Positions 6,001 through 16,680 are shown, numbered from the stretch's first letter. The stretch: 64,000 nt of DNA from Eledone cirrhosa (GCA_964016885.1 OZ024742.1:227106001-227170000), one strand, 5' to 3'. Numbers and translations are program-made. Notes: generated by a model from the letters alone, not told the origin.

Positions 6001-9000
6001 TACCTACCACTGCCACCCAACCGCAGTCTACCTACCACTGCCACCCAACCACAGTCTACCTACCACTGCCACCCAACCGCAGTCTACCTACCACTGCCAC
6101 CCAACCGCAGTCTACCTACCACTGCCACCCAACCGCAGTCTACCTACCACTGCCACCCAACCGCAGTCTACCTACCACTGCCACCCAACCGCAGTCTACC
6201 TACCACTGCCACCCAACCGCAGTCTACCTACCACTGCCACCCAACCACAGTCTACCTACCACTGCCACCCAACCACAGTATACCTACCACTGCCACCCAA
6301 CCACTGTCTATCAGCCACAGTCTACCTACCACTGCCACCCAACCACAGTCTACCAGCCACTGCCACCCAACCACAGTCTACCTACCACTGCCACCCAACC
6401 ACAGTCTACCTACCACTGCCACCCAACCGCAGTCTACCTACCACTGCCACCCAACCGCAGTCTACCTACCACTGCCACCCAACCACAGTCTACCTACCAC
6501 TGCCACCCAACCGCAGTCTACCTACCACTGCCACCCAACCGCAGTCTACCTACCACTGCCACCCAACCGCAGTCTACCTACCACTGCCACCCAACCGCAG
6601 TCTACCTACCACTGCCACCCAACCACAGTCTACCTACCACTGCCACCCAACCACAGTCTACCTACCACTGCCACCCAACCACAGGTTACCTACCACTGCC
6701 AGCCAACCACAGTCTACCTACCACTGCCACCCAACCGCACTATACCTACCACTGCCACCCAACCACAGTCTACCTACCACTATCACCCAAACGCAGTCTA
6801 CCTACCACTGCCACCCAACCACTGTCTATCAGCCACAGTCTACCTACCACTGCCACCCAACCGCAGTCTACCTACCACTGCCACCCAGCCGCAGTCTACC
6901 TACCACTGCCACCCAACCACAGTCTACCTACCACTGCCACCCAACCACAATCTACCTACCACTGCCACCCAACCACAGTCTACCTACCACTGCCACCCAA
7001 CCGCACTCTACCTACCACTGCCACCCAACCGCACTCTACCTACCACTGCCACCCAACCACAATCTACCTACCACTGCCACCCAACCACAGTCTACCTACC
7101 ACTGCCACCCAACCACAGTCTACCTACCACTGCCACCCAACCACAGTCCACCTACCACTACCACCCAACCACAGTCTACCTACTACTACCACCCAACCAC
7201 TGTCTATCAGCCACAGTCTACCTACCACTGCCACCCAACCGCACTCTACCTACCAATGCCACCCAACCACAGTCTACCTACCACTGCCACCCAACCGCAG
7301 TCTACCTACCACTGCCACCCAACCGCAGTCTACCTACCACTGCCACCCAACCACAGTCTACCTACCACTGCCACCCAACTGCAGTCTACCTACCACTGCC
7401 ACCCAACCGCAGTCTACCAGCCACTGCCACCCAACCGCAGTCTACCTACCACTGCCACCCAACCACAGTCTACCTACCACTGCCACCCAACCACAGTCTA
7501 CCTACCACTGCCACCCAACCACAGTCTACCTACCACTGCCACCCAACCACAGTCTACCTACCACTGCCACCCAACCACAGTCTACCTACCACTGCCACCC
7601 AACCGCACTATACCTACCACTGCCACCCAACCACAGTCTACCTACCACTATCACCCAAAAGCAGTCTACCTACCACAGCCACCCAAACGCAGTCTACCTA
7701 CCACTGCCACCCAACCACTGTCTATCAGCCACAGTCTACCTACCACTGCCACCCAACCGCAGTCTACCTACCACTGCCACCCAGCCGCAGTCTACCTACC
7801 ACTGCCACCCAACCACAGTCTACCTACCACTGCCACCCAACCACAATCTACCTACCACTGCCACCCAACCACAGTCTACCTACCACTGCCACCCAACCGC
7901 ACTCTACCTACCACTGCCACCCAACCGCACTCTACCTACCACTGCCACCCAACCACAATCTACCTACCACTGCCACCCAACCACAGTCTACCTACCACTG
8001 CCACCCAACCACAGTCTACCTACCACTGCCACCCAACCACAGTCCACCTACCACTACCACCCAACCACAGTCTACCTACTACTACCACCCAACCACTGTC
8101 TATCAGCCACAGTCTACCTACCACTGCCACCCAACCGCACTCTACCTACCACTGCCACCCAACCGCACTCTACCTACCACTGCCACCCAACCACAATCTA
8201 CCTACCACTGCCACCCAACCGCAGTCTACCTACCACTGCCACCCAACCGCAGTCTACCTACCACAGTTTACCTACCACTGCCACCCAACCACTGTCTATC
8301 AGCCACAGTCTACCTACCACTGCCACCCAACCGCAGTCTACCTACCACTGCCACCCAACCACAGTCTACCTACCACTGCCACCCAACCGCAGTCTACCTA
8401 CCACTGCCACCCAACCGCAGTCTACCTACCACAGTTTACCTACCACTGCCACCCAACCACTGTCTATCAGCCACAGTCTACCTACCACTGCCACCCAACC
8501 GCAGTCTACCTACCACTGCCACCCAACCGCAGTCTACCTACCACTGCCACCCAACCGCAGTCTACCTACCACTGCCACCCAACCGCACTCTACCTACCAC
8601 TGCCACCCAACCGCACTCTACCTACCACTGCCACCCAACCGCAGTCCACCTACCACTGCCACCCAACCGCAGTCTACCTACCACTGCCACCCAACCACAG
8701 TCTACCTACCACTGCCACCCAACCACAGTCTACCTACCACTGCCTCCCAACCACAGTCTACCTACCACTGCCACCCAAAAGCAGTCTACCTACCACAGCC
8801 ACCCAACCGCAGTCTACCTACCACTGCCACCCAACCACAGTCTACCTACCACTGCCACCCAAAAGCAGTCTACCTACCACAGCCACCCAACCGCAGTCTA
8901 CCTACCACTGCCACCCAACCACAGTCTACCTACCACTGCCACCCAAAAGCAGTGTACCTACCACAGCCACCCAACCGCAGTCTACCTACCACTGCCACCC

Positions 9001-9875
9001 AACCACAGTCTACCTACCACTGCCACCCAAAAGCAGTCTACCTACCACAGCCACCCAGCCACAGTCTACCTACCACTGCCACCCAACCGCACTCTACCTA
9101 CCACTGCCACCCAACCACAGTCTACCTACCACTGCCACCCAACCACATTCTACCTACCACTGCCACCCAAAAGCAGTCTACCTACCACTGCCACCCAACC
9201 ACAGTCTACCTACCACTGCCACCCAACCGCACTCTACCTACCACTGCCACCCAACCACAGTCTACCAGCCACTGCCACCCAACCGCAGTCTACCTACCAC
9301 TGCCACCCAACCACAGTCTACCTACCACTGCCACCCAACCGCAGTCTACCTACCACTGCCACCCAACCACAGTCTACCTACCACTGCCACCCAACCGCAG
9401 TCTACCAGCCACTGCCACCCAACCGCAGTCTACCTACCACTGCCACCCAACCACAGTCTACCTACCACTGCCACCCAACCGCAGTCTACCTACCACTGCC
9501 ACCCAACCGCAGTCTACCAGCCACTGCCACCCAACCACAGTCTACCTACCACTGCCACCCAACCACAGTCTACCTACCACTGCCACCCAACCGCAGTCTA
9601 CCAGCCACTGCCACCTAACCACAGTCTACCTACCACTGCCACCCAACTACAGTCTACCTACCACTGCCACCCAACCGCAGTCTACCAGCCACTGCCACCC
9701 AACCACAGTCTACCTACCACTACCACCCAACCACAGTCTACCTACCACTGCCACCCAACCACAGTCTACCTACCACTGCCACCCAACCACAGTCTACCTA
9801 CCACTGCCACCCAACCGCAGTCTACCAGCCACAGTCTACCTACCACTGCCACCCAACCACAGTCTACCAGCCACT
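1..9875. repeat. 28-bp minisatellite array, consensus CCACTGCCACCCAA-CCACAGTCTACCTA, about 350 units, runs off the left edge
   Basis: Direct 28-nt periodicity. The 28-aa repeat in the ORF track equals three units. Variants include 14-nt insertions (CCACTGTCTATCAG) and half-units. Confidence 0.98.
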
Positions 9876-10027
9876 GGCCACACATCACATATAGTCAGCA
9901 TTATGGTGATCATTACAAACAATGTAGAGTTAACAAACATTTTCTTTTCACAATCTAGGTCAAGACTGTTGTGTTTAACAACATAATATACTTCTTGTTG
10001 TAGACCTGTGTATGTATGTATGTATAA

Positions 10028-10062
<35 letters not shown>

Positions 10063-10354
10063 GTACTGATGATATATACACATATATCATTTTACCCTGT
10101 GTTTTTCTAAGGTTGCATGGGTTGGACGGACACACACACACACACATTCTCACTCACACACACTCACTCACTCTCACACACACATACACACACACATACA
10201 CACACATACTCTATTGAGTGACATTTTACTGAAGGCTTCTATAATCTATAAGTATAAATTTGATATTTGATATTTGTTGACCTAAAGCAAGAGGCTAATC
10301 ACATAACCTAGTTATAACCAATAATAATGAGGAGGTAATCCAATACTATACTCC

Positions 10355-10510
10355 TTGCATGGCTGTGAGGTTAAGAGGTTTGCTTAGCAACTATGTGGTC
10401 TTGGGTTTTATCTCACAGTATCTCACTTTGAGCAGCATATTCTTTTATTATAGCCATGGGCCAACCAATTTGTGTGAAATTTGCTAGACAAGCTGAAAGG
10501 AAGACTGTCA
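10355..10510 (+). mobile_element. Degenerate tRNA-derived SINE (family also at ~40315-40440, 48730-48876 minus, 50682-50850, 51180-51330)
   Basis: A-box-like TGGCTGTG-GGTTAAG, B-box-like GGTT..ATC, and a shared body ending in tgtgaaatttg.tagac.gaaactg across copies. Confidence 0.6.
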
Positions 10511-10530
10511 TATATATATATATATATATA

Positions 10531-10642
10531 TAATGAAGGAAATGTGGTAAGGAACCAGATGGACCATAACGCACCAAAGTACTCAATACTTAGCGTAGTA
10601 GAGTGGATAATAGGAACGAGTAGGACCCCTACTCGTTCCTAT
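10531..10642 (-). mobile_element. Short foldback element, family A, in (TA)n
   Basis: Reverse complement of ~11955-12048. Terminal hairpin ATAGGAACGAGTAGG-acc-CCTACTCGTTCCTAT at 10610-10642. TA tracts on both sides. Confidence 0.75.
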
Positions 10643-10847
10643 ATATATATATAGTTTGATATGTATTTTCTCAAAGCTGTAAGGGAATCATTCTGTCACT
10701 ACCATAACAGAAGTCCGATTAGCTTTTGTTTCCATAGTTGGACCCTATCAATACAGATCAAACCTTGACCTGATCAATCGCAAAACGTGCATCACACCTC
10801 AATAAATGTAATGAAGACCTAACACCTCGTCCTTTTTATTATTATTA

Positions 10848-11175
10848 GCACTGGGTATTTGCTGGTGTTGTGCCAAAAGTAGAAACAATTATTATTATTA
10901 TTATTATTGCCTATCATCTTTACAGGGTCGCTAAAATAAAGTACCAGTAATACACTGGGGTAATTGCTGGCCTTGTGTCAAAAGTAGAAACAATTATTAT
11001 TATTGGCAGTATTGGTAGAAAGTCTGATGCCATTCTTTGCAGCACAGAGTTACTGCCCTTTACAGTTTGAGGTTAACTTTGGCTTTCATCCTTATGGGTT
11101 CGATAAAATAAAGTACCAGTAATGCACTGGGATAATTACTGACCTTGTGCCAAAAGTAGAAACAATTATTATTTA
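10848..11175 (+). mobile_element. Tandem partial copies of the dominant tRNA-derived SINE with (ATT)n tail
   Basis: gcctttcatcctta.ggggtcgataaaataaagtaccagtaatgcactggg...gtgccaaaagtagaaacaattattatt repeated; matches full copies elsewhere. Confidence 0.85.
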
Positions 11176-11642
11176 TATATATATACATATCATCATCATC
11201 ATACCGTTTAACATCCATTTTTCCATGCTAGCATGGATTAGATGAGTTGTCCTGTTGTAAGACAAGTAAAATCAGGTAACTATATCTTGATCATATAGAA
11301 CTGGTTCTGGCTTGGTTTCTATGGCTGGATGCCCTTTCTAACACTAACCACATTTACAGAGTGTACTAGGGGCTTTTTATATATATGACCAATTATAGCA
11401 AAGTTGCACATGAAAAAACCAAACACATAGATGCTTTTGTTCATTTGTCTTAACTTCCTCTTCAGTCACTCTCTGGGCAGTGCAGTTGTGTGCATAAGGG
11501 TGGTATTGCATAATATTACATCCAGATTGCATGAGACAACATAACATAGAGACAGGGGCCAGCAAGTGTCTTTTGACTGAAAACAGGACAGGATATATAT
11601 ATATGTATATAATAATATATATATATATAAATATATATATAT

Positions 11643-11798
11643 ATATTGTTATACTTTGGGAGGGTCATGTTGCCAATAAGAAACACACACACTGGTGCGT
11701 GTGTTTCTTATTGGCAACATGACCCTCCCAAAGTATAACAATATCGGTTTCAACACACGATTTCAGATAAAGAATCTTGCTAAACAAATTCAGAAACG

Positions 11799-11800
<2 letters not shown>
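11643..11800 (+). mobile_element. Short foldback element, family B: 46-bp perfect inverted arms plus ~55-nt tail, in (TA)n
   Basis: Arms 11643-11688 and 11699-11744 are exact reverse complements. A related end (atgaccctccccaagtataacaatat) is at ~12405-12430. Confidence 0.75.
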
Positions 11801-11854
<54 letters not shown>

Positions 11855-11859
<5 letters not shown>

Positions 11860-12048
11860 AACGAGTAGGACCCCGACGGCTGAGCTCGAGCCGTTTCGAC
11901 GGCTAATTCAGTCCAGAATTAGCCGTCGAAACGGCTTGAGCTCAGCCTTCGGGGTCCTACTCGTTCCTATTACCCACTCTACTACCCTAAGTGTTGAGTA
12001 CTTTGGTGCGTATGGTCCACCTGGTTCCTTACCACATTTCCTTCGTTA
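11855..12048 (+). mobile_element. Foldback element, family A: 55-bp arms plus ~78-nt tail, in (TA)n
   Basis: Arms 11855-11909 and 11916-11970 differ at 2 positions. GTCGAAACGG follows the apical stem. Confidence 0.75.
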
Positions 12049-12185
12049 TATATATATATATATATAAATATATATATATGCGCAAAGAAGACAAAATAAA
12101 ATAAACAAACAAATAAATAAATAAATATATAAACAGACTAAATAAAGATGGCGTAGACATACAATGTAACGGGAGGAAACAATAG

Positions 12186-12226
12186 CACCACTGACGATGT
12201 TGCAGATGTGCAACGAAAGAACTTTC
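12186..12226 (+). ncRNA. Hammerhead ribozyme core remnant (CTGACGA-T-GTTGCA-gatg-TGCAAC-GAAA)
   Basis: Canonical CUGANGA and GAAA boxes around a perfect 6-bp stem II with one extra U. No stem I partner found. Confidence 0.5.
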
Positions 12227-12453
12227 ATAAACTATATATATGTGTTTGTGTCTATATTGTATCTGTATTATTTTTGACTGTTGGTCAGTCAATGGCAACA
12301 TTGAGGACCGAATAAATTAGATTACCGATATAAAAGACACAGAAGCGAAAACCAACCAACCAGTGAGTGTGTTCTGTTATTAATTCTGGCAATATTACAC
12401 AAATATGACCCTCCCCAAGTATAACAATATATATATATATATTTATTAAAATA

Positions 12454-12526
12454 ACAGATTAAAGTTTAAGCAAAGAATTGCTACTTTCACCCTTAACGGG
12501 ATCTTCTGAAACTAAAGTCAATCTGT
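12454..12526 (-). ncRNA. Type I hammerhead-like ribozyme with variant core CAGAAGA (inverted copy)
   Basis: Minus strand reads ACAGATTGA-cttt-AGTTT-CAGAAGA-T-CCC-gttaa-GGG-T-GAAA-GTAG-caattct-TTGC-T-T-AAACT-TTAATCTGT; all three stems pair. Confidence 0.6.
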
Positions 12527-13399
12527 GAATGCAGAAGTGAATATTTCAAAAAACGTAGCAACCGGAGGAAGACAGGAAGACGATACTTTGGTTCGTGGAA
12601 ACGTTCCCTGGCAAAGAACGGGAAAAAACGAATATAATACGTCATTATTTGGAGCGGTGAAAAACAATTACACGCAAAGACAAAACCACGTTTATGGTAT
12701 AAAAGAAGTCGTAGACTAATATTCTATTAGGTGGTTCATAGAGACGTTCTCAAGCATATACGTTTATTTAATTTTATGTATACACGCACACACACACATA
12801 TATATATTTTTATATATATTTTTATGTGTATTTGGTGTACACATTTGTATGCGTGCGGGTACAGGCGTTGCGTGTGTTTTTTTTTTTTTTTTTTTTTTTG
12901 TGTACGTGCATGTATTTGTATACCTATGGCGAGTATTTTCGCGTATGCTTGTGTATGTACGTATATGGATGCGTGTATGTATTTATTTATCTCAATTACC
13001 TCTGTATTTTATTTACTTTATTCATAACTCTAAAGCCGAGAATCATTCGGTTTCCTAGTTAGAATTTTAGTCTACGACTTCAGTTATACCATTTACGTGG
13101 TTTTGTCTTTGCGTGCAATTGTTCTCCGCGTTCCACATATGACGTATTATCTTCGTTTTTTCCGTTCAGTGCCAGATAACGTCTCTATGAACCACCTAAT
13201 AGAATATTAGTCGACGACTTCTTTTATACCATAAACGTGGTTTTGTCTTTGCGTGTAATTGTTTTTCACCCCTCCAAATAATGACGTATTATATTCGTTT
13301 TTTCCCGTTCTTTGCCAGGGAACGTTTCCACGAACCAAAGTATCGTCTTCCTGTTTTCCTCCGGTTGCTACGTTTTTTGAAATATTCACTTCTACGTTC

Positions 13400-13475
13400 A
13401 CAGATTGACTTTGTTAGTTTCAGAAGATCCCGTTAGGGGTGAAAGCAGCGATTCTTTGCTTAAACTTTAATCTGT
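13400..13475 (+). ncRNA. Type I hammerhead-like ribozyme with variant core CAGAAGA
   Basis: Stem I 13416-20/13462-66 plus distal helix 13400-08/13467-75; stem II CCC/GGG; GAAA 13441-44; stem III 13444-48/13456-60; NUH triplet CUU, predicted cut after 13461. Confidence 0.65.
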
Positions 13476-13576
13476 TATTTTAATAAATATTTGCTCTACG
13501 GTTCATATATATTTGATATATATTTATCCTTATCGAGCCCTCTTTGGATTTTAGTCTTCAAATTTATTATTATTAC

Positions 13577-13655
<79 letters not shown>

Positions 13656-13802
13656 TGTGTCTGAGAGGGATATATATCATCATCATCATCATCATCATCA
13701 CCGTTTATAGTTCAATGTTTATAGTTGATTAAGAGCACTCAACGGTTCCTGGAGCAATTAATCAATAAAAGTAAGCATTAAAAAACTCTATATGTAATTA
13801 TG

Positions 13803-14090
13803 CATCATCATCATCATCATCACCGTTTTACGTCCGTTCTTCCACGCTAGCATGGGTTAGACGGGTTGTCCTGTTGTGGGCAGTGTCTGGTCGGCTGACC
13901 AAGCCTTGCTCATACAGGAACTGATTTTGGCTTGATTTCTACAGCTGGATGCCCTTCCTAACACCAACCTCATTTACAGTGAGTGCTGGGTGCTTTTTTT
14001 TCCGTGGCGCCTACACGTCCACTCTACAGTGCGGGCTGGGTGCTTTTTTGCTGTGGCACGTCCACGACCACTTTGCAGTGTGAGGGTGTG
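13803..14090 (-). mobile_element. (ATG)n-tailed RTE-related 3' repeat / SINE (many other copies, e.g. 11190-11375, 31133-31357, 41050-41325, 50880-51150, 54890-55400)
   Basis: (CAT)n tail on + strand, conserved ggatgcccttcctaacaccaacc motif and ~50-nt internal repeats ccactttacagtg..ctgggtgctttt. Confidence 0.7.
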
Positions 14091-14171
14091 GGGTCATATT
14101 GTCTATATGCTTCAGTTTGTACCCATGGGAGGTCGGGTACTCTATTACTGCGTGATGCCAGAGGTCAATAA

Positions 14172-14472
14172 ATAGAGAAACTGTGTCTGAGAGGGATAGA
14201 ATGTAGTGTGCGAGAGAGGAGACTGAGGTAGTATGGACATGCGATGCGCATGGAGGATGACCGATGGGTGAAGAAGTGCCAGGAAATGCCAGTTGAAGGA
14301 AGACGTGGTAGAGGTAGACCACGAAAAACATGGACGGAGGTGGTGAGAACAGACCTCGCTGAAGCTCTCGGTGGAGATGACGAAGGACCGTGACAAGTGG
14401 AGAGATGCTGAATAAGACCCGTCCCACCTTTGCAAGCAGGGAAACGCGGACGTAAAATGATGATGATGATGA
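14172..14472 (+). mobile_element. 5'-truncated RTE LINE 3' end
   Basis: Near-identical to the reverse complement of 42345-42655; (ATG)n tail. Confidence 0.9.
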
Positions 14473-14484
14473 GAGAAGGCACAC

Positions 14485-14650
14485 AATTTATTTCAGATGG
14501 AAATCACTTCTACAGGACTAGCATTGTTTCATTCAGTTGAAACTATCATTGTTTTCCTGATGATTTCAACCAAATGATACAGTGCTAGTCCTGTAGTAGT
14601 CATTTCCATCTGAAATAAATTATATATTTCATTGTTATCATAAAAAATAG
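14485..14650 (+). mobile_element. Foldback element, family D: ~64-bp imperfect arms with hammerhead remnant
   Basis: Arms 14485-14548 and 14558-14621. Right arm begins at CTGATGA-T-TTC-aacc..AAT-GATAC (GAAAC in the left arm) and ends with AATAAA. Confidence 0.55.
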
Positions 14651-14739
14651 ACATTAAATGATGATGGTATATATCATCATCATTTACTGTCTGCTTTCCC
14701 TGCTAGCAAGGGTTGGACAGGTCTACATAGACCAAGTCA

Positions 14740-16680
14740 GTATTGACTAACTCTATTACTAAACAACTCAGTTTAAATGGCCATTTCAAAAATACAGAAA
14801 AAGAATTATACCCACTTTGTGAATCAAGAAGTCCCCAACTTGTGGCATGCTCTAAGTGTGGATGGAAGATTTGCCTGCTCCCTTTTCACAAGAAAAGCTA
14901 GCCTCGGCTTTAGGTCAACTCAAGAGCAGTAAGGCCCAGGGACCAGACAACATCTCCTCAGAATTCTTGATACAGTGCCAGCCAAGATTCCAGGCATGGC
15001 TTTATCAACCAAATCATACTGAAGATCTGACAGAAGGCTACTGTCATTGCCTTTCCAAATCCAAAGAAACCTGTAGATGAACCAAAGAACTACAGATCAA
15101 TCTCCTTCCTATGTGTCCTCTTCAAACTTCTAGAGTGACTGGAAGCAATAGTCGATCCACAACTGCCAGATGAGCAAGCAGGTTTTCACCATAGCCGGAA
15201 CACAGTACATCAGATCATCAAGCTGATAATAAGTTTGAAGACAGCTTTGAAAAGGGTTACAAGGCTGGCACTATCCTGGCTGACCTAACTGCAGCCTGTT
15301 ACACTGTGTAGCACCCGAACCTGACAGATGTAACTAAGAACCATTCCTGAATGTATAAAGCATACTAACAGCAGACATGCAGACATAACCCAACTGGTAA
15401 TATATTTCAAGAGCTGGGAATTGAACCTAAGCATCGCAAAAATGACTGCAACAGCATTCCACTTGAATACCAAGGAGCCCAATCACCAGCTCACCATTAA
15501 CCTCTATAGCACACCCCTCCCATATAATGCCACATCAACCTATCTTGTGATGAAATTGGACTGACAGCAAACCTATAGACAGTAGCTTAAGTCTTTACTG
15601 CAAAAGTGTCCATGAGGAACAACATTCTATGCAACTTGGCAGGCTCATGATGGCTTGCTGGCACATCCACTCTATGTACCAGTGCCCTAGCCTTGGTCTA
15701 CAATGATGTGGAGTATGCCTCCCCAGTATAGTGATGGAGCTCCCATACTAAGAAGCTAGATACAGCCCTGAACAACACCTTCAGTCTCATCACTGGATAT
15801 CTCCATCCTATAACTAAATATCTACCTGTGCTCTAAGACAGGCATGTCAAACATGCGGCCCTTTACAAGTACACCTGCGGCCTGCACAAAGGTTTTTACA
15901 GCGCGAGCATGTTTTATCTTTGTAATATAAAATATAAAATATTAGTTGTAATGTGCACAATTAGTTGTCGTGTGTGGCCCTCAGACAACACATATGTGAC
16001 CCATGTGGCCCTCAGGGGACCCTTAGTTTGACATGCCTGCTCTAAGGTATTGCTCTTGCACCACTTCTAGAGAGTATCTCATTCATAGATTAGTACCCAA
16101 GGCTTCAAAAGACCCAATTCATCTGCTCCTTGACATGGCTGAAGATTCTCGGCTACTGGACCAACATCACTTGACATCATACTGCCTTTTCTCTTGTCAT
16201 ACAGCAAAGCTGCGAAACTTACATTCTAACATTCTTCAGACATGGAAAGCTAGCTGGCAACAGACCTCCCAACCTGCCCAACTGAATGTCAATCCTAATA
16301 CAGCCCTGCCTCAAAAGGAGTGGGTGCCCCTAAATTGGCTACACACAGTTGTCAGCCAGTTAGATGCAGCCGTGCACCACTAGGGCCTGCGGCCATCAGA
16401 AGCTTGCTAGTGTGGCTCAACAGGGCAGACTGTGGAACACAAAGTGAGTGCCCAGATCTCTGCCCAACTCAGTGTATGTACCTCACACACCCTAATCGCA
16501 CTACCGTGAATTGGTTGCCGTGCCTGGGGGGATGCACATGATTGTTGACTCTTGAGGTTTCTTGGGTGTTTAAATGATAGGGACCCCAGTCCTATTATGT
16601 TGTTACAGTTCACACCTATGTACATTTAGCCTGTTTTCTACGAGGTTATATCTCATAGGAGGTTTCTTGGGTGTTTTAAC
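14740..16680 (+). mobile_element. Degraded non-LTR retrotransposon, probably RTEX clade
   Basis: Frameshifted RT remnants: KAQGPDNISSEFL, NYRSISFLCVLFKLLE, DEQAGF, LADLTAA. A ~110-bp tandem 3' repeat also appears reversed at 59880-60080. Confidence 0.7.
15839..16039. mobile_element. hAT (Charlie-like) MITE
   Basis: TIRs CAGGCATGTCAAAC/GTTTGACATGCCTG; 8-bp TSD ctctaaga/ctctaagg. Confidence 0.9.

What the first reader, a model, noticed from the sequence alone, without database searches (positions are those of the whole stretch)
10510..14650. Cluster of unrelated foldback elements sharing one architecture: inverted arm + direct arm + unpaired tail, mostly in (TA)n, with hammerhead motifs
Seen: four unrelated families (A 10531-10642 and 11855-12048; B 11643-11800; C 12439-13570; D 14485-14650) each have a palindrome whose one arm continues into a ~30-80-nt tail. 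A-C sit between TA tracts; C and D end in AATAAA; A, C and D carry whole or partial hammerhead boxes. Established: Penelope-like elements carry hammerheads in their pseudo-LTRs, form inverted pLTRs at 5' truncations and have a short 3' tail. Inference: a microsatellite-targeting hotspot of non-coding ribozyme-bearing PLE derivatives, possibly undescribed in this lineage. No RT or GIY-YIG ORF is present here.
Basis: partly seen in the sequence, partly recalled or inferred. Interest (0 to 1): 0.75.

Follow-up and report, generated by a model that had tools for sequence, protein, structure and literature searches.

The report
Penelope retroelement stubs in TA repeats
The hairpin-plus-tail repeats clustered here between TA microsatellites are cut-short and miniature copies of Penelope-like retrotransposons, a known kind of jumping gene, and were likely pasted in by that element's reverse transcriptase and nuclease; this is an ordinary though clean example.

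Summary
The palindromes, one-sided tails and TA flanks are real and repeat genome-wide. The region holds six insertions of five families: A (twice), B, a missed sister family B2, C and D.

- **Target:** 30 of 30 A copies and 28-29 of 30 B copies elsewhere lie in (TA)n with exact ends.
- **Link to coding elements:** longer C copies run into a 618-aa ORF with a telomerase-like reverse-transcriptase fold and a GIY-YIG-type C-terminus. B is the 3' end of a ~3.2-kb element with RT and a Pfam-supported C-terminal GIY-YIG nuclease.
- **Structure:** copies keep a constant 3' end, vary in 5' truncation, carry an adjacent inverted copy and have the tail on one side only. This is the published signature of endonuclease-bearing Penelope-like elements, which are also known to prefer (TA)n.
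- **A and D:** they share this architecture, but no coding parent was found. A has about 4,500 copies with one identical hairpin turn.
- **Hammerheads:** not confirmed in A, C or D. Only B2 (12187-12228) carries a hammerhead-like core.

This scan reached the same reading before on other pieces of this genome. It is a new member of a known kind.

The parts
10510..10532 (.). (TA)n tract flanking A copy 1
10533..10638 (-). Family A copy 1, reverse orientation. Complete tail (10533-10608); the hairpin is reduced to a 12-bp stem by an internal deletion.
   Evidence: A positions 94-187 match 10629-10535 at 94.7%; 30-nt remnant hairpin
11593..11646 (.). (TA)n tract left of B
11647..11799 (+). Family B short element: ~98-nt hairpin plus a 55-nt tail (11745-11799). 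It is the snapped-back 3' end of a ~3.2-kb RT + GIY-YIG element (PLE-B).
11800..11857 (.). (TA)28 tract between B and A
11858..12046 (+). Family A full element: 110-nt hairpin (6-nt loop) plus a 76-nt tail (11971-12046).
12047..12079 (.). (TA)n tract between A and B2
12080..12430 (+). This copy is 5'-truncated and tail-less, and ends at the arm end directly in (TA)n.
12187..12228 (+). Hammerhead-like core inside B2: CUGACGA, a one-base bulge, a 6-bp helix II, GAAA, a 2-bp helix III and a weak helix I.
   Evidence: not detected by Rfam
12439..12755 (-). Family C inverted 5'-truncated copy (left arm). It ends at the arm end and has no tail.
12756..13490 (+). Family C direct 5'-truncated copy, all 3' UTR of PLE-C. 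It includes an internal 140-nt tandem duplication (13060-13337) that other copies also have.
   Evidence: 92% identical to L124 2217-3060
13491..13577 (+). Family C tail, followed by (TA)n at 13578-13610
   Evidence: 28 of 30 copies carry it
14472..14484 (-). 13-nt remnant of the family D tail, cut off by the 3' end of an (ATG)n-tailed retroposon (14199-14471).
   Evidence: compared directly with the tail starts of related D copies; inference
14485..14621 (.). Family D hairpin (64-nt arms, 9-nt loop). An old family: copies are 72-85% identical.

Best explanation
The interval holds six insertions of Penelope-like retroelements (PLEs) and their non-coding miniatures in (TA)n microsatellite DNA, and they were likely put there by target-primed reverse transcription by a PLE reverse transcriptase with GIY-YIG nuclease.

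Shown:
- Each family has a constant 3' end: an 'arm' ending in a short TA-rich joint, then a 55-87-nt tail.
- Copies have variable 5' truncation points.
- An inverted copy of the 3' region often abuts the truncation point, which makes the palindrome.
- The tail is present on one side only.
- For B and C, the same 3' ends terminate longer elements that encode RT plus a C-terminal GIY-YIG domain.

Inferred:
- The nuclease would nick (TA)n.
- The TA-rich 3' end of a read-through transcript would anneal to the nick and prime cDNA synthesis.
- The inverted copy would arise by self-priming (snap-back) of the cDNA or by priming from the second nick. It would stop at the internal TA joint, where it can pair with the other (TA)n end, leaving the tail unpaired.
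- Each insertion keeps TA repeats on both sides, so the same tract is hit again. This would explain the cluster.
- A (about 4,500 copies with one identical hairpin turn) and D are predicted to be mobilised in trans. They are copied as whole hairpins.
For: Target:
- 30 of 30 A loci have (TA)n on both sides with exact ends.
- B has it on the left in 29 of 30 loci and on the right in 28 of 30.
- 28 of 30 C loci end tail + (TA)n, and the 2 tail-less copies end arm + (TA)n.
- 12 of 13 tailed D copies end in TA-rich DNA.
- The window background for (TA)>=4 tracts is 1.17%.

PLE link, family C:
- L124 has a 618-aa open frame followed by ~1.2 kb of 3' UTR that is 92% identical to window 12756-13576.
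- Its motifs are conserved in 25 homologues: FD..YPSI, YRDDGL, then Y..Y.G..FK.R..H and CxxC..E..N..CxH.
- The predicted fold (pLDDT 82.8) best matches telomerase catalytic subunits, 3du5 at E 1e-9.
- ESM Atlas look-alike clusters carry RVT_1 and GIY-YIG.

PLE link, family B:
- L145 and L146 share 3.24 kb at 93% identity.
- They carry YVDD RT pieces (RVT_1 E 4.5e-4, below Pfam's cut-off) and GIY-YIG at 24.0 and 23.3 bits against a cut-off of 22.6.
- Both end in the B arm.

Structure:
- Variable 5' ends joined to inverted copies are seen in C and B-long.
- Hairpin turn points vary among the 15 A-tail hits outside the A-selected loci, two of which are the window's own copies.
- In L146 the tail is on the inverted copy and not on the full-length one.

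Propagation of the miniatures:
- 4,486 genome matches to the A turn and 59 to the B turn, against 0 in the controls.
- Arm-specific variants shared by 9 and 11 of 30 A copies show that the whole hairpin is inherited.

Heritable tail: the B and B2 tails are homologous.

Literature (passages read): EN+ PLEs show 5' truncation, an adjacent inverted copy, a 30-40-bp one-sided tail and a (TA)n preference, and self-priming has been proposed for them (PMC8557442, PMC3846280).
Against: - No coding parent was found for A or D. The 30 GIY-YIG loci examined carry no A or D sequence at their 3' ends.
- Local Pfam does not recognise the PLE-C protein. Only 2 of 26 family members touch GIY-YIG, with a best E of 0.012. 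The profile alignment of its C-terminus to the PLE-B nuclease has E 0.0025 but only 12% probability.
- Both PLE-B copies examined have broken frames.
- The tails are 55-87 nt, against 30-40 bp in print.
- Snap-back alone cannot give L146, where the tail-less copy is longer than the tailed one. More than one route is needed.
- Target-site duplications cannot be read within (TA)n.
Confidence: 0.85

Rival explanations
1. They are DNA-transposon miniatures (MITEs or foldback elements, for example Tc1/mariner-type with a TA target duplication). The hairpin arms would be the terminal inverted repeats, and the elements would be moved by cut-and-paste.
For: Insertion at TA, flanking TA on both sides and long inverted repeats are typical of Stowaway-like MITEs (recalled). 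Target duplications cannot be excluded within (TA)n. No parent was found for A or D.
Against: - The true outer ends are not inverted repeats: the left end is the arm and the right end is the unpaired tail.
- The 3' end is constant while 5' truncation and hairpin turn points vary.
- B and C are colinear with the 3' ends of RT + GIY-YIG elements.
- No transposase ORF was seen in the long copies.
Confidence: 0.05
2. They are products of a single-strand, HUH-type (Helitron-like or IS200/IS605-like) transposition, in which a terminal hairpin is the recognition signal and insertion occurs between A and T.
For: There is a hairpin at one end only, there are no terminal inverted repeats, and insertion between A and T is compatible with the flanks.
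Against: - The ends do not match the recalled Helitron 5'-TC and CTRR-3'.
- No Rep/helicase ORF was seen in the long copies; they carry RT and GIY-YIG instead.
- Hairpin length and turn point vary between copies while the tail stays constant, which does not suit a fixed recognition hairpin.
Confidence: 0.03
3. A and D are short non-coding retroposons mobilised by a different retroelement, for example a microsatellite-specific LINE, and only resemble PLE insertions.
For: No PLE parent was found for A or D. Microsatellite-specific LINEs exist (recalled). LINE fragments lie nearby (14800-15200).
Against: - A and D have the same hairpin, TA joint and one-sided tail as B and C, whose parents are PLEs.
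- They lack a poly(A) or simple-repeat tail of their own.
- They share TA tracts with B and C at many loci.
- The genome holds at least 10,597 GIY-YIG candidates, and 150 of 150 scored pass Pfam's cut-off.
Confidence: 0.07

Closest known systems
Complex insertions of endonuclease-bearing Penelope-like elements (Arkhipova et al. 2013, PMC3846280; Craig et al. 2021, PMC8557442; passages read)
   Same: Heavy 5' truncation. An inverted 5'-truncated copy abuts the 5' end. The junction is palindromic, which those authors interpret as self-priming. A short tail sits at only one end. The ORF has RT plus GIY-YIG. Several clades (Naiad, Hydra, Neptune) insert into (TA)n.
   Different: The tails here are 55-87 nt rather than 30-40 bp. 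No direct pseudo-LTRs were seen in the copies examined. Rfam finds no hammerhead in the PLE-B or PLE-C copies examined.
Hydra clade of C-terminal EN+ PLEs (Craig et al. 2021; passages read)
   Same: PLE-C is short and highly divergent (Pfam-blind). [quoted passage not shown]
   Different: The paper states that canonical hammerheads are universal in Hydra. None was found in 3.3 kb of L124, which is a 5'-truncated copy. No phylogeny was made here, so clade membership is a lead only.
Neptune/Nematis-type EN with a CX2-5CxxC linker (Craig et al. 2021, citing Arkhipova 2006; passages read)
   Same: PLE-B has CIDKKCIIC (CX4CXXC) just upstream of GIY-YIG. The paper suggests this linker mediates the (TA)n bias.
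   Different: The clade was not determined by phylogeny. The hammerhead-like core has a one-base bulge and is missed by Rfam.
Animal non-LTR retrozymes (bioRxiv 10.64898/2026.07.22.740005, abstract and passages read; Cervera and de la Pena 2020, recalled)
   Same: Non-coding, proposed to be mobilised by PLE enzymes, and derived from PLE terminal sequence.
   Different: Retrozymes are tandem units built around a hammerhead. A, B-short, C and D are single hairpin + tail units without a hammerhead.
Non-autonomous Chlamys elements such as MRC1 (Craig et al. 2021; passage read)
   Same: Non-coding PLE derivatives that share 3' ends with autonomous families.
   Different: Those form pseudo-LTRs and head-to-tail arrays in a green alga. 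The elements here are hairpin miniatures in an animal genome.

Membership tests
EN+ Penelope-like elements (families B and C) | Reverse transcriptase of the PLE/telomerase-related kind | tested here: met
   PLE-C: the model's best PDB matches are telomerase catalytic subunits (3du5, E 1e-9), and RT motifs A and C are conserved. PLE-B: YVDD; RVT_1 E 4.5e-4 at 20.4 bits, below Pfam's cut-off. No RT phylogeny was made.
EN+ Penelope-like elements (families B and C) | GIY-YIG endonuclease fused to the RT | tested here: met
   PLE-B: Pfam GIY-YIG at 24.0 and 23.3 bits against a cut-off of 22.6, C-terminal to the RT. PLE-C, weaker: conserved Y..Y.G..R..H..E..N motifs and a beta-beta-alpha-alpha-beta-alpha prediction; hhalign E 0.0025 at 12% probability; 2 of 26 members touch Pfam GIY-YIG.
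EN+ Penelope-like elements | 5' truncation with an adjacent inverted 5'-truncated copy | tested here: met
   C. B-long. L146 unit. Window C copy.
EN+ Penelope-like elements | Short tail at only one end of the insertion unit | tested here: met
   A in 30 of 30 copies and B in 29 of 30. In C the tail is on the direct copy in the window and on the inverted copy in L089. In L146 it is on the inverted copy only. Exceptions: L107 and L177 carry tail sequence on both sides. Length is 55-87 nt, longer than published.
EN+ Penelope-like elements | Direct pseudo-LTRs (partial tandems) | tested here: inconclusive
   Not seen in L124, L145 or L146. A partial duplication in L104 was noted but not analysed.
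EN+ Penelope-like elements | Hammerhead ribozyme motif (canonical clades) | tested here: inconclusive
   Rfam finds none in the window region, L124, L123 or L146, yet the same model finds 18 hits elsewhere in the genome. A hammerhead-like core in PLE-B and B2 has 94% of cells paired and 3 compensatory pairs. Cleavage is untested.
Non-autonomous PLE derivatives (families A and D) | 3' end shared with an autonomous PLE family | tested here: not met
   The 30 GIY-YIG loci carry no A or D sequence at their 3' ends. This is a small sample of at least 10,597 candidates, so the parent may simply not have been sampled.
Non-autonomous PLE derivatives (families A and D) | PLE insertion geometry and (TA)n target | tested here: met
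Non-LTR retrozymes | Hammerhead in each unit; tandem arrangement | tested here: not met
   There is no hammerhead in A, B-short, C or D. These are single units, not tandem arrays.
MITEs / foldback DNA transposons | Terminal inverted repeats at both outer ends, plus a target-site duplication | tested here: not met
   The outer ends are the arm start and the tail end, which are not complementary. A duplication cannot be read within (TA)n.
Helitrons | 5'-TC and CTRR-3' ends, a small 3' subterminal hairpin and a Rep/helicase parent (features recalled) | tested here: not met
   The ends are GGAACG...TTCGT (A) and TGTTATAC...AAACGA (B). The parents carry RT and GIY-YIG.

The most novel reading that the evidence does not exclude
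The hairpin-plus-tail miniatures are true 'SINEs of Penelope elements'. The arm, TA joint and tail, about 130 nt, would be all that a PLE enzyme needs in cis. A, with about 4,500 copies, is copied as a whole hairpin. The one-sided tail, together with the TA joint, records a simple rule: both ends of a PLE insertion are set where (TA)n target DNA anneals to one of several TA-rich sites in the template. This would give a directly testable handle on the unsolved PLE integration mechanism.
Probability: 0.35. Interest if true: 0.55.

Novelty: new member of a known kind. Interest (0 to 1): 0.3.

Why it matters
How Penelope-like elements integrate is still called undefined in the literature (PMC8557442, passage read). 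This locus and its relatives give many independent junctions in one genome:
- hairpin turn points;
- tail-less versus tailed ends;
- TA joints;
- a ~3.2-kb unit in which the tail sits on the inverted copy.

Any model has to reproduce these. Practically, the elements explain why TA microsatellites in this genome are interrupted by unrelated-looking palindromes. Such palindromes can be mis-annotated as microRNA hairpins, as Rfam's weak miRNA hits show, or as MITEs. They can also trouble assembly and microsatellite genotyping.

Tried and rejected
- **Rfam:** scans of the window region, L124+L123 and L146 gave only weak, sub-threshold miRNA-like hairpin and viral 3'-UTR hits, which I take as chance.
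- **Pfam on the PLE-C protein and four homologues:** nothing usable. A PDB sequence search with the family profile gave 0 hits.
- **My first hammerhead scan:** it required helix II to start directly after CUGANGA, so it missed the bulged core in B2. The looser published descriptor found it.
- **Search for an A or D parent:** looked among 30 GIY-YIG loci and found none. The many C-query hits in that call are microsatellite noise.
- **Palindrome-length function:** too crude, and replaced by folding. The first pairing index was off by three and was redone.
- **Self-BLAST of the window for other inverted repeats:** it cannot see tight hairpins and was not used.
- **AATAAA at the arm ends of C and D:** considered as a polyadenylation signal and set aside. 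A and B lack it, and no copy has a poly(A) tail.
- **Twin priming as for LINE-1 5' inversions:** the classic form gives non-overlapping segments, whereas here the two copies overlap.
- **Notes from the same scan:** the look-up by place returned nothing.


Full report
**What is there**

The window is a piece of a ~3.0-Gb animal-type genome: G000 contig C3, bases 227106001-227170000. Between 10510 and 14650 the sequence alternates (TA)n tracts with palindromes.
- A: a full copy at 11858-12046, with a 110-nt hairpin and a 76-nt tail. A second, reverse copy at 10533-10638 has a collapsed hairpin.
- B: 11647-11799, a ~98-nt hairpin plus a 55-nt tail.
- B2 (new): 12080-12430. It is a sister of B, 5'-truncated and without a tail.
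- C: 12439-13577. A 317-nt inverted arm, a 5'-truncated direct copy and an 87-nt tail.
- D: a hairpin at 14485-14621.

None of these families has another copy in the other 60 kb of the window.

**They are mobile families with exact ends in (TA)n**

| Family | First-look candidates in the genome | Identity of scored copies to the window copy |
|---|---|---|
| A | at least 1,845 | 92-98% |
| B | at least 641 | 90-99% |
| C | at least 5,956 | 88-96% |
| D | at least 1,374 | 72-85% |
| B2 | at least 2,518 | 95-99% |

- All 30 fetched A loci read ...TATATA|GGAACGAG...CCTTCGT|TATATA....
- B has (TA)n on the left in 29 of 30 loci; in L048 the palindrome runs on instead. It has (TA)n on the right in 28 of 30; L046 has none and L047 only three units.
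- 28 of 30 C loci end tail + (TA)n. The other two (L083, L089) end at the arm end, directly in (TA)n.
- (TA)>=4 tracts occupy 1.17% of the window, so chance is excluded.
- Different families share one TA tract at many other loci. B sits next to A in L011. A-like elements sit next to C in L064 and L078. B sits next to C in L072. A or B sit next to D in L103, L104, L113 and L118. B2 sits next to C in L190.

**Link to coding elements**

Most C copies lack the window's left arm and continue 5' into sequence that is absent from the window.
- L124 (C1:248238200-248241500) has a 618-aa frame, open at its 5' end, then ~1.2 kb of 3' UTR, the arm, the tail and (TA)n.
- A word-seeded search gave 896 homologues at E <= 0.001 among the 8,000 candidates scored. 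The best is 55% identical.
- An alignment with 25 of them conserves RT motifs (F..FD..YPSI, YRDDGL). It also conserves a C-terminal Y..Y.G..FK.R..H block flanked by cysteine/histidine motifs.
- The AlphaFold model (pLDDT 82.8) best matches telomerase catalytic subunits, then retron, DRT, LINE-1 and group II RTs. PLE RTs are reported to be the closest relatives of telomerase (PMC8557442 abstract).
- Local Pfam is blind to this protein. ESM Atlas look-alike clusters carry RVT_1 and GIY-YIG in part of their members. I count the Atlas result as a lead only.

B leads to a second element.
- Incidental B tails sit on longer bodies. A search with that body and two fetched stretches showed a ~3.2-kb element shared by L145 and L146 at 93% identity.
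- The frames are broken. They carry YVDD RT pieces, a CX4CXXC linker and a GIY-YIG domain above Pfam's cut-off in both copies.
- Its 3' end is the B arm.
- PLE-B and PLE-C proteins are not detectably similar by BLASTP beyond the YIG block. Two distant PLE lineages therefore use the same target.
- The genome has at least 10,597 GIY-YIG candidates, and 150 of 150 scored pass the cut-off. About 12 of the 30 fetched loci belong to yet another family that ends ...CCCTGTTTTCA|(TA)n.

**Geometry**

C and B-long copies share the 3' end and start at many different points. The start often abuts an inverted copy of the 3' region.

The inverted copy normally ends at the arm end, where every family has a TA-rich joint:

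| Family | Joint (arm end \| tail start) |
|---|---|
| A | CCTAT\|TACC |
| B | CAATAT\|CGG |
| C | AAATAT\|TTGC |
| D | ...TTTA\|TACT |

- This is why the palindromes called run a few bases into the flanking TA.
- The tail is on one side only, and that side can be either one. In L089 and L146 the inverted copy carries the tail and the direct copy does not.
- Exceptions exist: L107 and L177 have tail sequence on both sides.
- Alternative ends fall at other TA-rich sites inside the C tail, at the position equivalent to 13527 in L071 and L089.
- The tail belongs to the element and is not filler. The B and B2 tails are homologous, and A subfamilies keep the tail while their arms differ.

**Are the miniatures copied as such?**

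- The exact A turn (32 nt, up to 2 mismatches) occurs 4,486 times: 2,246 forward and 2,240 reverse, with 0 in the control.
- The B turn occurs 59 times, again with 0 in the control.
- Among the 30 A copies, two variants are present in both arms in compensating form, in 6 copies each. Single-arm variants are shared by 9 and by 11 copies.
- Whole hairpins are therefore inherited, with occasional re-symmetrisation. These 30 copies are the best matches to the window copy, not a random sample.
- The 15 A-tail hits outside the A-selected loci, two of which are the window's own copies, show other turn points and shorter left arms.

**Hammerheads**

- Rfam gives no hammerhead at E <= 10 in 10000-15200, and none at E <= 1 in L124+L123 or L146.
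- The same family model finds 18 matches above its gathering score elsewhere in this genome, so the method works here.
- Those hits belong to another hairpin + tail family in (TA)n, in which the ribozyme lies in the tail.
- A, B-short and C have no CUGANGA heptamer. D has one, without a partner.
- The descriptor of Craig et al. (CUGANGA, 7-17 nt, GAAA) does hit B2 at 12191. The homologous site in PLE-B has an 18-nt spacer.
- On 18 B and B2 copies, a hammerhead-type fold (helix I 4 bp, helix II 6 bp after a one-base bulge, helix III 2 bp) has 94% of cells paired, against 21-42% when partners are slid. Three pairs are changed on both sides.
- Those three changes all lie on the single B/B2 split, so this is suggestive and not proof. 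Cleavage is untested.
- The site lies ~200 nt (B2 in the window) to ~240 nt upstream of the arm end, so B-short has lost it.

**Family D**

- Copies are old, and only the hairpin matched the window query.
- 13 copies found in the D loci carry a conserved ~62-nt tail on one side, ending GGGATAAAC before TA-rich DNA. Copies of the window's subtype carry a related tail.
- In the window, the sequence right of the hairpin does not match that tail. The 13 nt to the left (14472-14484, reverse strand) do match, and they are then cut by the 3' end of an (ATG)n-tailed retroposon. This is my reading.
- A and D tails share a motif (...GTRTTGAGTAC...). 4 and 1 of 1,000 shuffles reach the observed alignment score. 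The A/B, A/C and B/C tail comparisons are at chance.

**Comparison with what is known**

The passages I read describe exactly this geometry for EN+ PLEs. They also report a (TA)n preference in Naiad and Hydra, with the CX2-5CxxC linker proposed as the cause in Neptune, and they offer self-priming as the reading of palindromic junctions (PMC8557442; PMC3846280). Non-coding PLE derivatives are known as non-autonomous Chlamys elements and as retrozymes.
- I found no description of hammerhead-less hairpin + tail miniatures with thousands of copies in three literature searches. That is a thin basis, and Repbase and Dfam were not available.
- Notes of this same scan reached the same reading on two other pieces of this genome and in other genomes. 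They are not independent evidence.

**Verdict**

- The mechanism beyond the geometry is inferred.
- This is a new member of a known kind and of modest interest. Its main use is as a dense natural record of PLE junctions.

Noticed in passing
window 12187-12228; L126-L144 and L184-L194 at the homologous site: A hammerhead-like core (CUGANGA, a bulged base, a 6-bp helix II, GAAA, minimal helix III) is conserved between PLE-B and its sister family B2, with three compensatory pair changes. Rfam misses it.
   Followed up: yes
L177-L182 (around position 1500 of each locus): Another hairpin + tail family in (TA)n carries a canonical Hammerhead_1 match (37.8 bits) inside its tail. Its copies end at two alternative TA-rich sites, about 125 or 235 nt after the arm.
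   Followed up: partly
window 13648-13672 and 14174-14198: A perfect 25-nt direct repeat (AGAGAAACTGTGTCTGAGAGGGATA) brackets about 500 bp of (CAT)n-headed SINE-like sequence. It looks like a long target-site duplication of a nested retroposon insertion.
   Followed up: no
window 9000-9881: A 28-nt minisatellite of about 30 copies at 91% match (CAACCACAGTCTACCTACCACTGCCACC), just upstream of the finding.
   Followed up: no
window 10853-11186; also 11203-11378 against 13822-13998: Three copies of a ~95-170-nt SINE-like unit ending ...AAAAGTAGAAACAATTATTATT, and two copies of a (CAT)n-headed SINE (84-87% identical). (TA)n tracts sit at the joints of these units and are used as PLE targets elsewhere, for example in L046.
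   Followed up: partly
L147-L176: The genome holds at least 10,597 GIY-YIG candidates, some in open frames of 844-1,096 aa. About 12 of the 30 fetched loci belong to a further PLE family whose 3' end ...CCCTGTTTTCA abuts (TA)n.
   Followed up: partly
L190 (C4:36595353-36598645): The same juxtaposition as in the window recurs here: a tail-less B2 end, a short (TA)n, then an inverted C arm, but with a different C hairpin turn. This is either repeated use of the same kind of site or a chimeric insertion.
   Followed up: no
window 14800-15200: A fragment of a LINE-type reverse transcriptase frame (...NYRSISFLCVLFKLL...) lies just beyond the finding.
   Followed up: no
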